DNA of 64,000 nt from the NCBI GenBank assembly GCA_002418835.1, contig DIEX01000034.1, positions 225,926 to 289,925 of the forward strand. Reading direction: 5' to 3'. The DNA comes from Spirochaetia bacterium UBA5763. Lineage in GTDB: Bacteria; Spirochaetota; UBA4802; UBA5550. Below, piece by piece: positions 46,747 through 63,994 of the stretch (position 1 is its first letter; each line of letters starts with the position of its first letter). A model generated the notes under the pieces. That model saw only the letters and a program-made list of their open reading frames with translations. It had not been told where the DNA came from and ran no database searches. A program made the translations under genes and the position numbers.

Positions 46747-48276
46747 ATGAAAATTAAATCTTTCAGAAAATCAATAAGCTTCAAAATTACTGTTCTCTAT
46801 ATCCTCCTTGCAATTATAAACATGTCCTTCTTCTCCATAATCATTTACGAAAACCAGATAGACCTCATCACTGAAAATACAAAGCACAGAATAACTGAGT
46901 TAACTGATTCACTGATAAATACCCTGAACAGGTATAGCGCAGGATTCTCCTCGTCCGGGAGGAATAAATTAATCAGGAGTGAAGTTGCGGGGGAGGTTGC
47001 TGATATCATTAAGGAGATCACAAATGAGTTTTGTATTTTCTCCGAGGATGGTGAGGTAATAATCCGTTCCTCCGATTTGGTATCAATTTCGCAGCCTGAC
47101 ATACTTAACGGGCTCCGTGCAGTTACAAACAGGGATTTTACAGGTAAGCGTTTCTATTCCAGGGTTGATGAGGAGAAGTTTGAGATATCATTTTATATAC
47201 CATTTTCGATGCAGACTCTGGATAAATCAATTCTGTTTCTGAAGTTCAGGCTCAATGAAATTAATGACAGGCTAACGCAGCTTTACAGGATAATTGTACT
47301 TATTATTACAGCCATTGGCCTGTTTCATATATTTTTTGCCATCCTCCTTTTTAGAATTTTTGTACGCCCTATTAAGCTGCTTCATGAGAAAAGTGTTGAT
47401 ATAGAAAAAGGTGATCTCTCTGCACGGGCTGATCTGAAGAGGGATGATGAAATCGGTGAGCTTGCGGATGCCTTTAACAGGATGGCTGATTCGGTTCAGG
47501 ATAAAATTGTAACACTTGAATATCAAAGGGAGCTCATGGATCAGGAGCTTGAAATGGCCTCAAAGGTACAGGAGGCAATATTCCCCCATATTACAAACAA
47601 CAACAGATTCAATTTTTCGATATTCAGCCGGGCTGCTGAAATGGTCAGCGGTGATTATTATGACATCTTCGATCTGGGGGATGATTCATACGGCTTTCTC
47701 CTTGTCGATGTTCAGGGACACGGTGTTCCAGCCGCGATGATTACTATGATCATCAAGGAGAAGTTCAGGCGCAATACAATGAAATACAGAGATCCCGCTG
47801 AGCTCTTCAGATTTGTAAACAGTGAGATCATCTCTCTTCTCTCGGAAGTGGAAAGGGACTCGGCCCTCTATTTCACAGCATTCTACATGGTTATTGACAG
47901 TAGTAATAAGCTCTATTCAGTTGATGCGGGACACCTCAGACCGTTTCTTTTAAGGAGCTCAAAGAATGAGATTTCTCTTCTTAAAAGCGGAGGGATTCCG
48001 CTGGGCATCTCAAGCGATATGGATGAACTTTATGTGACCCATGAATGCAGCATTAGTTCCGGAGACAAGATTGTTCTTTTTACTGACGGGATCATTGAAG
48101 CAAGAAGTCCCGATGAGAAAGAGTTCGGTATGGACAGGCTTATCGGCTGTATCAGGGCCGGGTATAAATTAAACGGTGATGAACTTATGAGAACGATTGT
48201 GCGGGGTCTTGCGGGATTTGCGAATCTCGATTCACTGCGTGATGATGCCACTGTGTTTATCGTGGAGCTGAAGTAG
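46747..48276 (+). CDS. Membrane-anchored HAMP-domain PP2C-type (SpoIIE/RsbU-like) serine phosphatase
   Basis: TM helix, sensor region, second TM helix, a HAMP domain (DEIGELADAFNRMADSV) and PP2C motifs (SGDYYDIF...LVDVQGHGVPAAM...FTDGIIE). Confidence 0.75.
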   Translation: MKIKSFRKSISFKITVLYILLAIINMSFFSIIIYENQIDLITENTKHRITELTDSLINTLNRYSAGFSSSGRNKLIRSEVAGEVADIIKEITNEFCIFSEDGEVIIRSSDLVSISQPDILNGLRAVTNRDFTGKRFYSRVDEEKFEISFYIPFSMQTLDKSILFLKFRLNEINDRLTQLYRIIVLIITAIGLFHIFFAILLFRIFVRPIKLLHEKSVDIEKGDLSARADLKRDDEIGELADAFNRMADSVQDKIVTLEYQRELMDQELEMASKVQEAIFPHITNNNRFNFSIFSRAAEMVSGDYYDIFDLGDDSYGFLLVDVQGHGVPAAMITMIIKEKFRRNTMKYRDPAELFRFVNSEIISLLSEVERDSALYFTAFYMVIDSSNKLYSVDAGHLRPFLLRSSKNEISLLKSGGIPLGISSDMDELYVTHECSISSGDKIVLFTDGIIEARSPDEKEFGMDRLIGCIRAGYKLNGDELMRTIVRGLAGFANLDSLRDDATVFIVELK

Positions 48277-48279
48277 GGT

Positions 48280-61959: not shown

Positions 61960-63285
61960 TCAATCCTGTTCAGTAATCTTTGTAATTTTGTCCCTTTTTA
62001 CATCTATTCTCCCGATGCTGGTTTCTAAAGAGATATAGTCAATATTTTTTTCTATAAGTTTTCCCTTGAATGTGTTTCCGTCGCTTGTAATAATTATAAG
62101 AAAGGTTTCTTTTATTGTAGCATTGACGCTGGTAAGTTTTTCAACTTTTTCTTTGAGGCTATCCGGTACATTTACTTTAATAGCGTCAGCTCCGGTTATA
62201 CCTTCTGAAGAGAAGCCCTTACCTGTCTTAATTATTTCAGTAAGCACCGGGTCGTTTAATCTCTTATTAATATTTTCTGAAAGTTCAACTATCTTGTTGT
62301 CACCTCCTGCGGATTTTCCAATCATGTAAAGCTTCCTGTTGGAATATTTTGCGTAAGGTGAATCAGGTGAAGTTGTTACTACCTTCAGGTAGTTCTCCAC
62401 TGCTTTTTCAGGCTCACCCAGGCCGCTGTAACATCTTGCCTTGAAATATTGTATGGATGGCAGGTCTGTGGGAGCCGCTTTACTTTCTATATCATTAATT
62501 ATTCTCAGGGCCTGCTCATAAGCAAGAACGTTCACCAGTTTGCGGCTTTTTAAAACCGGGTCCGATTCGGCGATAAGTATTTTCTCCTTCGCAAGAGTAA
62601 AACCTTCAAGATATCTTATCAGAATTGACGCGGTTATTGCGCTGCTCTCCTGGCTGTAATCCCGTATAATTTTATTGTAATTCTTCATCGCCCTGTCATG
62701 ATTTCCCGCAAGGGCGTAGCAGTAACCCTGCCTTAACAGTATGCTGGATATGTAACGTGAATTAAAAGTATGATTTTCAATAGCTTTATCATATAGAGCT
62801 ATTGCGCGTTTGAACATAAAATTCCGTTCAAAGTAGTAAGCTTCATCGAGCTCTTTGAACTGTCTGTCATTGCTGCTTTTAAAACTTACAGGGGGTTTGC
62901 CGAGAATTCTCCGGTTAAAATTTATTATATAGAGTGCGGGGAGTGTAACTATACTGTTAACATTACCGTATTCCGCCTGATCTGTCCTGATTTGGAGAGA
63001 GAGTGTTCTCAGGTTGTTTTCAGTTATATCAGCGTCATCCTGTGACATTCTCTCCTCATATATTTTTTTATGTATTTCATATGTTGCAACCAGGGCAATG
63101 TGATCAATCCCCCCTTCATTTTTATCAGTCTCCTGAAGATAGGTTTTTAATTCATTCAGGCGTATAGATATTACAATATTATTTACGAAAATAAGATACC
63201 CGGCAATAAGCAGCGGTATAATCACTATTCCGATCTTAAATGATTTATCTTTAAAGGATGAGATAGATTTATGATTTGAATTCAA
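61960..63285 (-). CDS. TM-anchored TPR-repeat protein, module B
   Basis: Paralogous to the 48280-49653 gene (see motifs there). Its C-terminal small beta-domain reads TFKGKLIEKNIDYISLETSIGRIDVKRDKI. Confidence 0.6.
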   Translation of the reverse strand: MNSNHKSISSFKDKSFKIGIVIIPLLIAGYLIFVNNIVISIRLNELKTYLQETDKNEGGIDHIALVATYEIHKKIYEERMSQDDADITENNLRTLSLQIRTDQAEYGNVNSIVTLPALYIINFNRRILGKPPVSFKSSNDRQFKELDEAYYFERNFMFKRAIALYDKAIENHTFNSRYISSILLRQGYCYALAGNHDRAMKNYNKIIRDYSQESSAITASILIRYLEGFTLAKEKILIAESDPVLKSRKLVNVLAYEQALRIINDIESKAAPTDLPSIQYFKARCYSGLGEPEKAVENYLKVVTTSPDSPYAKYSNRKLYMIGKSAGGDNKIVELSENINKRLNDPVLTEIIKTGKGFSSEGITGADAIKVNVPDSLKEKVEKLTSVNATIKETFLIIITSDGNTFKGKLIEKNIDYISLETSIGRIDVKRDKITKITEQD

Positions 63286-63994
63286 CTCTGTTCTTTCCTC
63301 CGGCTTTGGCCTTTAAAAGTGCCGACGAAGCAGATTTGAAAATATTATCCGGATTCTGCTGCTGAAGTTCCTGTTCAGCCGGGTTGAATGTTGTTACTCC
63401 AATGCTCACTGATACTGAAAAATTTCCATCAGGTGTTATAATACTGTTACCAGCCACTGAACTTCGTATTGTTTCTGCAATATCCGCTATATCTGTCCCC
63501 GTGTGCCCGGCAGAAAGTAGAGCGAATTCATCATCGGCTATGCGCGCCAGTATATCACTTTCATGGCTGCTGTTAGATATTTTTTTTGCTGTCTCAAGCA
63601 GTATTATATCCCCTGTCTGTTTGCCGTAAAGGGCATTGATTTTGCTGAAGTCATCAATATTAATTATCATAAGAGAAAAACCGCCAGGGTGTGACTTTGC
63701 AGTTCTGAGTTCTTCACTGACCCTTTCGTTAAGATAATTACTGTTCAGCAGGCCTGTCAGATCATCCCGTGTTGAGCTTTTATCTTTTTTACGATTAATG
63801 TTTTTCGCAGATTCAACTTCTGTAGAAAGAGATATAATGTTATTGCGGGCAGATTCAGCCATGTTGTTGAATGCTGATGCAATGGAATCCAGTTCAAAGC
63901 TTTTACCTGAAAGTACAACACGGGCAGTCATGTCACCCCCGGAAAAGTTTTCAGCAGCAGTAACCAGGCTTTTAAGAGGGAGAATGAAGGACAT
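63269..63994 (-). CDS. HAMP-GGDEF diguanylate-cyclase-like protein with a degenerate active site. The N-terminus probably extends beyond the window.
   Basis: A HAMP C-terminal helix (IASAFNNMAESARNN) and a GGDEF domain with an ADDEF motif (RIADDEFALL). The ORF reaches within 6 nt of the window edge. Confidence 0.6.
   Translation of the reverse strand: MSFILPLKSLVTAAENFSGGDMTARVVLSGKSFELDSIASAFNNMAESARNNIISLSTEVESAKNINRKKDKSSTRDDLTGLLNSNYLNERVSEELRTAKSHPGGFSLMIINIDDFSKINALYGKQTGDIILLETAKKISNSSHESDILARIADDEFALLSAGHTGTDIADIAETIRSSVAGNSIITPDGNFSVSVSIGVTTFNPAEQELQQQNPDNIFKSASSALLKAKAGGKNRVEFKS

What the first reader, a model, noticed from the sequence alone, without database searches (positions are those of the whole stretch)
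46747..63994. Two paralogous TM-TPR / OM beta-barrel / secreted lipoprotein modules, each wired to a HAMP signalling enzyme (PP2C phosphatase versus GGDEF)
Module A (plus strand, 48280-51784) and module B (minus strand, 63285-60131) share gene order and clear sequence paralogy in the first two genes. The third gene differs: a LamG-domain lipoprotein in A and a six-bladed YWTD propeller lipoprotein in B. Both are predicted surface or periplasmic binding folds. Each module is immediately preceded by a HAMP-containing signal-output enzyme. Module A follows the HAMP-PP2C phosphatase at 46747, with an orphan STAS antagonist at 52583. Module B follows the HAMP-GGDEF at 63994-63269, whose stop overlaps the TPR gene start. 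The C-terminal roughly 40 aa of each TPR protein resembles the N-terminal domain of its partner beta-barrel (for example KIYTIDGNIFTGTLVSESGSSVTVRTPF versus LILKNGTLLVGKVKSSSDKSIVFKNYYG). This suggests a shared interaction domain. Together the arrangement looks like an uncharacterised envelope sensing or export module. Its ligand-binding component is swappable, and it feeds a partner-switching pathway or a c-di-GMP output.
Basis: seen in the sequence. Interest (0 to 1): 0.6.

Follow-up and report, generated by a model that had tools for sequence, protein, structure and literature searches.

The report
Four-gene envelope signalling cassette, duplicated
Two diverged copies of a previously undescribed four-gene cassette from an uncultured spirochaete link a membrane signalling enzyme to a TPR adaptor, a small outer-membrane barrel and a lipoprotein with an interchangeable binding domain, and it probably relays envelope or surface signals into the cell.

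Summary
It covers the TPR proteins (29% identity, E=2e-70), the barrels (28%, E=6e-27) and the input halves (TM1, periplasmic domain, TM2, HAMP) of the PP2C and GGDEF enzymes (32%, E=7e-38). In 53 related loci, all uncultured Spirochaetota, the tightest link is HAMP enzyme followed by TPR (42 of 46). A barrel lies nearby in 32 of 39. The barrel models as an 8-stranded OmpX/NspA-type fold with a signal peptide and a C-terminal aromatic residue. Its N-terminal five-strand Sm-like module is homologous to the TPR C-terminus (hhalign 90.7%, E=1.2e-6). The third genes differ in ectodomain (LamG, YWTD, Kelch, cadherin-like, Big_2). I favour a trans-envelope signalling cassette analogous to YfiBNR, though not homologous to it. 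Export is unlikely because the barrel has no pore. The window's GGDEF reads ADDEF, so it probably does not make c-di-GMP; a conserved convergent GGDEF-EAL gene sits beside it. No curated family covers the TPR protein or the barrel. The mechanism is inferred.

The parts
46747..48276 (+). Module A sensor enzyme: TM1, periplasmic domain of about 140 aa, TM2, HAMP, PP2C (SpoIIE-type) phosphatase
   Evidence: Pfam HAMP E=2.4e-14 and SpoIIE E=7e-40. Catalytic motifs GDYYD, DVQGHG and TDGI are present. Residues 8-262 are paralogous to the module B sensor, 32% identity, E=7e-38. The PP2C domain matches RssB, SiaA (6k4e) and SpoIIE.
48280..49653 (+). Module A TPR adaptor: N-terminal TM anchor, conserved juxtamembrane region, about 16 TPR-type helices, flexible linker, and a C-terminal five-strand Sm-like module (residues 412-456, nt 49513-49647)
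   Evidence: It starts 3 nt after the PP2C stop. TPR Pfam hits. AF2 model, pLDDT 74. The family alignment has invariant N27, R34, E37, D53 and H54.
49650..50504 (+). Module A outer-membrane protein: signal peptide, Sm-like N-module (residues 27-72), three helices (75-118), 8-stranded beta-barrel (129-282), C-terminal ...YKLW
   Evidence: A 4-nt overlap with the TPR stop. AF2 model, pLDDT 80.7. Foldseek hits NspA (E=1.6e-6, TM-score normalised to target 0.70), Ail, OprF-N, OmpX and OmpW. No Pfam or NCBIfam family reaches its cutoff.
50573..51784 (+). Module A lipoprotein: lipobox LLTG|C (Cys codon 50690-50692), tether motif CGEGLSILTE (50690-50719), DUF2341 + LamG ectodomain
   Evidence: Pfam Laminin_G_3 E=1.4e-27 and DUF2341 E=2.3e-15. 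Motif specificity. Start codon as used by the public gene calls, 403 aa, read from the sequence.
51781..52497 (+). DUF2459/TIGR02117 lipoprotein, an accessory gene found only in the nearest relatives
   Evidence: Pfam DUF2459 E=9e-35. A 4-nt overlap with the LamG gene stop. Present in L008 and L010 only.
52583..52915 (+). STAS anti-sigma-antagonist-type protein, the likely substrate of the PP2C
   Evidence: Pfam STAS E=8e-18. A DSTALG motif sits where SpoIIAA/RsbV-type proteins carry the phosphorylated Ser (read from the sequence, own knowledge). STAS is linked to the module only in L008, L028 and L050.
58080..60119 (+). Membrane GGDEF(GGDDF)-EAL protein, convergent with module B and conserved beside clade B cassettes
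   Evidence: Pfam GGDEF E=1e-30 and EAL E=1.3e-63. EAL motifs ESLLR and DDFGKG are intact. The same gene lies beside the cassette in L030, L032-L035, L038, L041, L044-L046, L049, L052 and L055.
60131..61138 (-). Module B lipoprotein: lipobox VFTG|C (Cys codon 61066-61064), tether motif CGSEFETLLD (61066-61037), six-bladed YWTD propeller
   Evidence: phmmer against the PDB: LRP2/4/6 YWTD propellers, E down to 1.2e-25. Motif.
61116..61958 (-). Module B outer-membrane protein: signal peptide, Sm-like N-module, helices, 8-stranded barrel, C-terminal ...GYAF
   Evidence: 28% identical to barrel-A, E=6e-27. Member of the barrel family alignment.
61960..63285 (-). Module B TPR adaptor with C-terminal Sm-like module
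   Evidence: 29% identical to TPR-A, E=2e-70. The barrel HMM hits residues 397-437 in register.
63269..64000 (-). 3' part of the module B sensor enzyme (HAMP + degenerate GGDEF, active site ADDEF). The gene continues beyond the window; the full length is 445 aa.
   Evidence: The frame is open to the window end. Full gene at L006:7353-8690. Pfam HAMP and GGDEF. Active-site alignment.

Best explanation
This is a four-component, envelope-spanning signalling cassette, present twice in the window as ancient paralogues.

Inner-membrane sub-module (shown by synteny): a sensor enzyme (TM1, periplasmic domain, TM2, HAMP, then PP2C or GGDEF) with a membrane-anchored TPR adaptor encoded directly behind it.

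Outer-membrane sub-module (shown by synteny and structure prediction): an 8-stranded OmpX/NspA-like barrel carrying a periplasmic Sm-like module on a helical arm, plus a lipoprotein. The lipoprotein's variable ectodomain (LamG, YWTD or Kelch propeller, cadherin-like, Big_2) is attached through a conserved tether peptide just after the lipidated cysteine.

Proposed mechanism (inferred): the lipoprotein-barrel pair reports a surface, envelope or ligand state. The barrel's Sm-like module pairs with the homologous module at the TPR C-terminus. This engages or sequesters the TPR adaptor, which otherwise acts on the sensor's conserved TM1/juxtamembrane and periplasmic region. HAMP then switches the cytoplasmic output. 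In module A the output is dephosphorylation of a STAS partner-switch protein. In module B it is c-di-GMP signalling, here probably through the neighbouring GGDEF-EAL phosphodiesterase because the sensor's own GGDEF is degenerate. In logic this is closest to YfiB-YfiR-YfiN.
For: Three-gene paralogy at similar divergence. 42 of 46 TPR loci have a same-strand HAMP-PP2C (28) or HAMP-GGDEF (14) directly upstream, with gaps mostly -17 to +19 bp. A barrel lies nearby in 32 of 39 loci. In 8 loci the barrel and lipoprotein form a separate unit convergent with the sensor and TPR genes, which shows two sub-modules. The TPR tree follows output domain and lipoprotein type. The shared module is supported by hhalign at 90.7%, E=1.2e-6, with clean controls, by identical five-strand patterns in both AF2 models, and by reciprocal, exclusive HMM hits. 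The TPR C-module and the barrel are both present in 31 loci and both absent in 5, with 3 discordant. The tether motif is present in 20 of 24 barrel-adjacent lipoproteins, plus 3 close variants, against 1 of 68 others; that one is in fact barrel-adjacent. Charge bias favours an N-in, periplasmic TPR. Across 46 sensors the most conserved segments are TM1 with its juxtamembrane stretch and HAMP. PP2C motifs are intact and a STAS gene is in the operon. Precedent for the logic: YfiBNR (PMC3375315).
Against: No physical interaction has been tested; every contact is inferred from homology, synteny and co-occurrence. TPR topology rests on a modest charge bias, which is weak in clade A. The fold hits include LapB, a cytoplasmic membrane-anchored TPR protein. 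The co-occurrence of C-module and barrel is largely a single phylogenetic event (clade C), so it is not independent evidence. The localisation of the lipoprotein (inner membrane, periplasmic face of the outer membrane, or surface) is unknown. The signal is unknown. STAS is linked in only a few loci. The module B output is unclear because of the ADDEF site. All loci come from uncultured MAGs, and my gene calls were crude; two barrels were missed at first.
Confidence: 0.45

Rival explanations
1. A dedicated lipoprotein display or anchoring device, working like Slam. The TPR protein and barrel recognise the conserved post-cysteine peptide and place or hold the adhesin-like lipoprotein at the cell surface. 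The HAMP enzyme only regulates or monitors this process.
For: A TPR protein, a barrel and an adjacent lipoprotein resemble the Slam layout (PMC5449769). The conserved N-terminal motif looks like a sorting signal. The ectodomains are typical surface and adhesin domains: Big_2, cadherin-like, PKD, Kelch, LamG. There are weak TPR_Slam Pfam hits, E=0.016 and 0.056.
Against: The barrel has 8 strands and is of the pore-less OmpX/NspA class, not the 14-stranded DUF560. The TPR protein is a separate, membrane-anchored protein. The strongest conserved adjacency is TPR with the sensor, and it persists where the barrel and lipoprotein are absent. The TPR_Slam hits fall far below the cutoff.
Confidence: 0.2
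2. The TPR protein is cytoplasmic, like LapB (N-out anchor, TPR body inside the cell). It regulates the enzyme's HAMP or output side or its stability. The module it shares with the barrel is then only a common fold and not a contact.
For: Foldseek hits include LapB. In clade A the segment just after the TM helix carries 3-4 K/R residues.
Against: Net charge favours N-in, because the C-flank positives are offset by acidic residues, and clades B-D begin with MKK. The paralogous, conserved part of the partner enzymes is the TM and periplasmic input, not the output. The C-module is homologous to a domain that is periplasmic in the barrel protein and co-occurs with it.
Confidence: 0.12
3. There is no functional coupling. 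The TPR protein, barrel and lipoprotein are general envelope or adhesion proteins (CpoB- or BamD-like TPR, OmpX-like adhesin) that happen to be co-transcribed with abundant HAMP enzymes in these genomes.
For: Weak NCBIfam similarity of the TPR region to YbgF/CpoB and BamD. HAMP-PP2C genes are numerous in these lineages (own knowledge).
Against: Adjacency is seen in 42 of 46 loci with near-zero gaps across deep divergence. The sensor input, TPR protein and barrel co-diverge, and the subfamilies are congruent. Neither family was found outside this context in the loci examined.
Confidence: 0.08

Closest known systems
YfiBNR (TpbB) tripartite c-di-GMP signalling system of Pseudomonas aeruginosa (PMC2837407, PMC3375315)
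   Same: An operon encodes an inner-membrane enzyme with a periplasmic domain, HAMP and GGDEF, together with a periplasmic regulator and an outer-membrane protein that controls the regulator. The YfiR-type periplasmic input was also proposed to drive diverse cytoplasmic outputs.
   Different: The accessory proteins are not homologous. Here they are a membrane-anchored TPR protein (not soluble YfiR), an 8-stranded barrel with an Sm-like module (not the Pal-like lipoprotein YfiB), and a fourth component, the tethered lipoprotein. The sensor scores 103 bits against the 325-bit DgcN/YfiN cutoff. The window's GGDEF is degenerate.
SiaABCD and RsbU/SpoIIE-type partner-switching systems (PMC7647112, PMC8457831)
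   Same: Module A's enzyme has the SiaA architecture (two TM segments, HAMP, PP2C). SiaA is its best NCBIfam hit and SiaA-PP2C (6k4e) is among its PDB hits. A STAS substrate gene lies in the operon.
   Different: It scores 88 bits against the 700-bit SiaA cutoff. No SiaB/RsbW kinase or SiaD gene lies in the cassette. SiaA has no known TPR, barrel or lipoprotein partners.
Slam / type XI secretion (TPR + DUF560 barrel with an adjacent surface lipoprotein; PMC5449769, PMC8406197)
   Same: A TPR element, an outer-membrane barrel and a neighbouring lipoprotein gene with variable cargo.
   Different: Slam is a single polypeptide with a 14-stranded DUF560 barrel. Here the TPR protein and the barrel are separate, the barrel has 8 strands, and the unit is tied to a signalling enzyme.
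Trans-envelope signalling of the FecA-FecR and RcsF-OMP-IgaA types (own knowledge)
   Same: An outer-membrane component passes information to an inner-membrane signalling protein through a periplasmic domain contact. RcsF is a lipoprotein associated with barrels.
   Different: There is no TonB-dependent 22-stranded transducer, STN domain, anti-sigma factor or Rcs component here. The outputs are PP2C or GGDEF enzymes.
8-stranded outer-membrane barrels OmpX / Ail / NspA / OmpA-N / OprF-N
   Same: The barrel body has the same fold (TM-score normalised to target 0.58-0.70), with a signal peptide and a C-terminal aromatic residue.
   Different: Those proteins lack the added periplasmic Sm-like module and the three-helix arm. 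This family does not reach the Pfam OMP_b-brl threshold.

Membership tests
YfiBNR | YfiN/DgcN-type cyclase (periplasmic PAS, HAMP, active GGDEF) | tested here: not met
   The architecture is similar, but NCBIfam DgcN/YfiN scores 103 bits against a 325-bit cutoff. The active site reads ADDEF.
YfiBNR | Soluble periplasmic repressor of the YfiR family | tested here: not met
   The second gene is a TM-anchored TPR protein. Pfam and NCBIfam give no YfiR hit.
YfiBNR | Pal/OmpA_C-like peptidoglycan-binding outer-membrane lipoprotein YfiB | tested here: not met
   The third gene is an 8-stranded barrel with no OmpA_C domain and no lipobox.
Slam / DUF560 (type XI secretion) | TPR domain fused to a 14-stranded DUF560 barrel | tested here: not met
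   The proteins are separate. The model has 8 strands. There is no DUF560 hit, and TPR_Slam scores E=0.016 and 0.056, below the cutoff.
Slam / DUF560 (type XI secretion) | Adjacent gene for a lipoprotein substrate | tested here: met
   A lipoprotein lies next to the barrel in nearly all loci.
Slam / DUF560 (type XI secretion) | Barrel-dependent surface exposure of the lipoprotein | not testable with these tools
   This needs a translocation or shaving assay.
PP2C partner-switching system (RsbU/SpoIIE/SiaA type) | PP2C phosphatase with intact metal-binding motifs | tested here: met
   Pfam SpoIIE E=7e-40. Motifs GDYYD, DVQGHG and TDGI are present. PDB hits to RssB, SiaA and SpoIIE.
PP2C partner-switching system (RsbU/SpoIIE/SiaA type) | STAS antagonist substrate | tested here: met
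   STAS at 52583-52915, E=8e-18. It is linked to the cassette in only 3 other loci.
PP2C partner-switching system (RsbU/SpoIIE/SiaA type) | RsbW/SpoIIAB/SiaB-type kinase partner | not tested
   Gene calls with precomputed Pfam hits for the surrounding ~20 kb of the source contig list no RsbW/SpoIIAB-type kinase gene. The rest of the genome was not searched.
SiaA equivalog (NF038263) | Score at or above the curated cutoff | tested here: not met
   87.7 bits against 700.
8-stranded OM beta-barrel (OmpX/OmpA-N class, Pfam OMP_b-brl) | Signal peptide, eight antiparallel strands, C-terminal aromatic residue | tested here: met
   AF2 gives 8 strands at pLDDT about 90. Foldseek hits NspA, Ail, OprF-N and OmpX. 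The termini are ...YKLW and ...GYAF, and family members end mostly in W or F.
8-stranded OM beta-barrel (OmpX/OmpA-N class, Pfam OMP_b-brl) | Sequence membership of PF13505 | tested here: not met
   Only 6 of 48 members give weak hits, best E=0.0013.
Sm/LSm (SH3-like small beta-barrel) fold for the shared module | Five-strand bent sheet with significant similarity to Sm-fold proteins | tested here: inconclusive
   Both models have five strands. Foldseek hits Hfq with TM-score normalised to target 0.62, E=5e-3. Sequence hits to Edc3-LSm, LSm8, Hfq and SM-ATX are all non-significant.
Diguanylate cyclase (active GGDEF) | GG[DE]EF active site | tested here: not met
   The window's copy reads ADDEF. 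Only about 8 of 18 clade B sensors keep GG[DE]EF or SG[DE]EF.

The most novel reading that the evidence does not exclude
This is a new trans-envelope receptor architecture. Lipoprotein receptors with interchangeable ectodomains plug, through a common post-cysteine tether peptide, into a small barrel. That barrel is bridged by homotypic Sm-like modules to an inner-membrane TPR adaptor, which directly gates cytoplasmic PP2C or GGDEF enzymes. It would be a modular receptor-adaptor-enzyme chain unlike YfiBNR, Rcs or FecAR. It might also show how spirochaete-type lipoproteins are coupled to outer-membrane partners.
Probability: 0.3. Interest if true: 0.75.

Novelty: new variant of a known kind. Interest (0 to 1): 0.55.

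Why it matters
Most HAMP-linked PP2C and GGDEF enzymes have no known input. This cassette offers a concrete, testable input pathway. It names the partners, a candidate contact (homologous Sm-like modules on the inner-membrane adaptor and the outer-membrane barrel), and a 10-residue tether motif that marks which lipoproteins belong to it. If confirmed, it adds a new way for diderm bacteria to carry outer-membrane or surface information to cytoplasmic second-messenger and partner-switching pathways. It would also assign a function to two protein families that have no annotation. The barrel family is small, with 169 clusters at E<=1e-10 among 1.84 billion representative proteins. It also shows that a single input chassis has been rewired between phosphatase and c-di-GMP outputs.

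Tried and rejected
- BLASTP of the TPR C-terminus against the barrel N-terminus gave no alignment. Profile methods were needed.
- Naive iteration of the barrel HMM pulled in TPR proteins through the shared module and contaminated the profile. I rebuilt it with TPR proteins excluded.
- The exact-sequence lookup of TPR-B failed because gene callers chose a different start codon. I used barrel-B instead.
I rebuilt the alignment from admissible proteins.
- Pfam and NCBIfam have no family for the barrel or the shared module. The weak LB_137 hit (20 bits against a 200-bit cutoff) could not be followed up, and a literature search for LB137 returned only irrelevant papers.
- DUF2341 papers were not informative.
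- The promoter and terminator scans did not exceed the shuffled background (55 against 49.8; 21 against 12.9) and placed no sites at the gene boundaries. Operon structure therefore rests on gene spacing.
- The TPR fold search returned only generic TPR superhelices.
- I rejected export through the barrel because the fold has 8 strands and no pore.
- I rejected the idea that the third gene is freely swappable, because ectodomain type follows the TPR clade.

Full report
**What is in the window**
ORF listing confirms every gene at the stated coordinates.
- Module A, plus strand: HAMP-PP2C (46747-48276), TPR-A (48280-49653, starting 3 nt after the PP2C stop), barrel-A (49650-50504, 4-nt overlap), DUF2341+LamG lipoprotein (about 50573-51784), DUF2459 lipoprotein (51781-52497) and STAS (52583-52915).
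- Module B, minus strand: HAMP-GGDEF (from 63269 to the window edge), TPR-B (63285-61960), barrel-B (61958-61116) and a lipoprotein (61138-60131).

Pfam supports the domain calls. The GGDEF gene is truncated by the window, since its frame is still open at base 64000. On the source contig, a 421,789-bp contig from a hydrocarbon-degrading methanogenic culture metagenome, the gene is 445 aa long.

**The paralogy is real and wider than reported**
TPR-A and TPR-B are 29% identical, E=2e-70. Barrel-A and barrel-B are 28% identical, E=6e-27. The third genes are unrelated. A three-gene block was therefore duplicated, and the output domain (PP2C or GGDEF) and the lipoprotein ectodomain differ between the copies.

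**Synteny elsewhere**
The TPR protein has only 62 homologue clusters in a database of 5.8 billion proteins, and every named one is from Spirochaetota. A scan of species-representative genomes gave 53 loci, all from uncultured Spirochaetota MAGs (many labelled Leptospirales), often with 2-3 copies per MAG. I analysed these with my own gene calls and HMMs. Counting the two window modules, there are 55 in all.
- 42 of the 46 modules with enough upstream DNA have a same-strand HAMP-PP2C (28) or HAMP-GGDEF (14) directly upstream of the TPR gene. The gaps are mostly -17 to +19 bp.
- 32 of the 39 modules with at least 4 kb downstream have a barrel nearby. It is either adjacent on the same strand or, in 8 loci, in a unit with its lipoprotein that converges on the sensor and TPR genes.
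- A neighbour-joining tree of the TPR proteins separates four clades. Basal clade C has PP2C, no barrel, and a longer TPR protein ending in hairpin repeats. Clade D has PP2C, a barrel and a 484-490 aa lipoprotein. Clade B has GGDEF, a barrel and a YWTD propeller. Clade A has PP2C, a barrel and DUF2341/LamG. There is one exception, L026.

The cassette thus co-evolves as a unit made of two sub-modules: sensor with TPR, and barrel with lipoprotein.

**The barrel**
The family alignment shows a signal peptide, an N-module, a conserved helical segment and a β-rich body that ends in W or F. AlphaFold2 (pLDDT 80.7) predicts a signal helix, five short strands (27-72), three helices (75-118) and eight long strands (129-282) at pLDDT about 90. 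Foldseek against the PDB returns the 8-stranded barrels NspA (E=1.6e-6, TM-score normalised to the target 0.70), Ail, OprF-N, OmpX and OmpW. The N-module separately matches Hfq. The second refutation condition is therefore also not met. This class of barrel has no pore, however, which argues against a translocon role. No Pfam or NCBIfam model claims the family. An exhaustive profile search of 1.84 billion representative proteins finds 451 hits at E<=1e-3, 169 at E<=1e-10 and 83 at E<=1e-30.

**The shared module**
BLASTP finds nothing between the TPR C-terminus and the barrel N-terminus. Profile methods do.
- A clean barrel HMM hits only the last 40 or so residues of TPR proteins, always at HMM positions 27-67, and nothing else among 904 ORFs.
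- The reverse search behaves the same way.
- hhalign gives 90.7% probability and E=1.2e-6 over 42 columns. The controls, barrel body and reversed profile, give 0.4% and 1.1%.
- Both AF2 models show the same five-strand pattern, and the two sets align without internal gaps.
- No described family matches. The weak hits are all Sm/LSm or SH3-like.
- The module on the TPR protein co-occurs with the barrel: both present in 31 loci, both absent in 5, discordant in 3. This is largely a single phylogenetic event.

**The lipoproteins**
Ectodomains vary: DUF2341+LamG; five cadherin-like domains with Glucodextran_B and DUF2341, with or without LamG; Kelch with PKD; YWTD with Ig-like domains; five Big_2 domains with a propeller. 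All share a motif straight after the lipidated cysteine, with consensus C-G-[SDE]-[EG]-[FL]-x-[VI]-L-[LT]-[DE]. In the window it reads CGEGLSILTE and CGSEFETLLD.
- A loose regex hits 37 of 796 ORFs. Of those, 33 are lipoproteins with a signal peptide, and 32 of the 33 are barrel-adjacent in my gene calls. The exception is L049.
- Among strictly predicted lipoproteins, 20 of 24 next to a barrel have the motif and 3 more have close variants. Only 1 of 68 elsewhere has it. That one is L049, whose barrel my gene caller had missed.

The variable component is thus attached through a constant, cassette-specific peptide. Ectodomain type is clade-specific rather than freely exchanged.

**Topology and conserved surfaces**
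For the TPR proteins, the N-flank is net positive (+1.9/-0.2) and the post-TM flank is nearly neutral (+2.6/-1.9). Clades B-D begin with MKK. This favours an N-in, periplasmic TPR body, but it is inference and it is weakest in clade A. The most conserved parts of the TPR family are the end of the TM helix and the juxtamembrane region (N27, R34, E37, D53, H54). Across 46 sensors, the most conserved parts are TM1 with its periplasmic juxtamembrane stretch (LYI.LA.IN.SFF..II.ENQIDLI) and HAMP. That pattern is compatible with a contact between the two proteins at the membrane.

**Outputs**
The PP2C motifs are intact. The domain matches RssB, SiaA-PP2C and SpoIIE, and its best NCBIfam hit is SiaA, far below the cutoff. 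The STAS protein has a Ser at the usual phosphorylation position (read from the sequence, own knowledge), but STAS is linked to the cassette only in close relatives. The module B GGDEF active site reads ADDEF, and only about 8 of 18 clade B sensors keep a plausible site. A convergent membrane GGDEF(GGDDF)-EAL gene with intact EAL motifs (58080-60119) is conserved beside clade B cassettes. The c-di-GMP output of module B is therefore probably indirect.

**Interpretation**
The best-supported reading is a four-component trans-envelope signalling cassette. It works like YfiB-YfiR-YfiN (PMC3375315), but none of the accessory proteins is homologous to those components. The main rival is a Slam-like lipoprotein display device (PMC5449769). 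The 8-stranded barrel and the primacy of the sensor-TPR pair weaken that rival. Two weaker rivals remain: a cytoplasmic, LapB-like TPR regulator, and mere co-transcription without functional coupling. No interaction has been tested, and the signal is unknown. I rate this a new variant of a known kind, accessory-protein-controlled envelope signalling, built from two unannotated protein families.

Noticed in passing
window 63269-64000 and L006:7353-8690: The GGDEF active site of the module B sensor reads ADDEF, and the I-site reads HxxD. Across 18 clade B orthologues only about 8 keep GG[DE]EF or SG[DE]EF; the others read TDDEF, EGLVF, SGENI, AHDRF and so on. Many of these 'cyclases' are therefore probably inactive.
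   Followed up: partly
window 58080-60119 (+): A 679-aa membrane protein has an N-terminal multi-TM region of about 250 aa with no Pfam hit, followed by GGDEF (GGDDF) and an intact EAL domain. It converges on module B and is conserved in that position in at least 13 clade B loci. It is probably the real c-di-GMP effector of that cassette.
   Followed up: partly
L029, L043, L047, L057, L059, L060 (TPR genes at about 9950-11600 in each locus): Clade C TPR proteins (520-608 aa, from Spirochaetales/Spirochaetaceae MAGs) lack the Sm-like C-module. They end instead in repeated beta-hairpin motifs of the form 'Y..D..GN..K...Y', after an acidic or coiled-coil linker. No barrel or motif-bearing lipoprotein lies nearby.
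   Followed up: partly
window 51781-52497 (+): A DUF2459/TIGR02117 lipoprotein gene overlaps the LamG gene stop by 4 nt. It occurs with the cassette only in the closest relatives (L008, L010), and its lipoprotein N-terminus lacks the tether motif.
   Followed up: partly
L018:10685-12385, L019:14287-15921 (minus strand): In L018 and L019, two of the loci where the barrel and lipoprotein form a unit convergent with the sensor and TPR genes, a gene of about 545-565 aa lies immediately upstream of the barrel. The L018 protein is an AMP-binding, acyl-CoA-synthetase-like enzyme by Pfam, and the L019 protein has a near-identical N-terminus.
   Followed up: no
P0144, P0205, P0206, P0215, P0222, P0235-P0238: Some barrel-family representatives are 378-465 aa long. 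The barrel lies at the C-terminus, and some of them (P0144, P0215, P0222) match the profile in 2-4 stretches. These variants have longer N-terminal regions, possibly with repeated modules.
   Followed up: no
window 45869-46348 (+): A 159-aa cysteine-rich protein with a signal or lipobox-like N-terminus (…VYGC) and no Pfam hit is conserved upstream of module A on the source contigs, and a 159-aa ORF occupies the same position in L008.
   Followed up: no
L006:5116-7083 (source contig, beyond the window end): A DUF4015 protein of 655 aa lies immediately upstream of the module B sensor gene.
   Followed up: no
window 52920-54833 (-): A multi-TM Sulfatase/SGSH_C protein (own reading: LtaS/OpgB-like) converges on the module A operon and is retained there in the nearest relatives (L008, L009).
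   Followed up: no
window 49650-50504, residues 20-70: There is a weak NCBIfam hit to the Leptospira 'LB_137 family' (288-aa model, 20 bits against a 200-bit cutoff) over the signal peptide and N-module. This may point to a distant counterpart in cultured Leptospira.
   Followed up: partly
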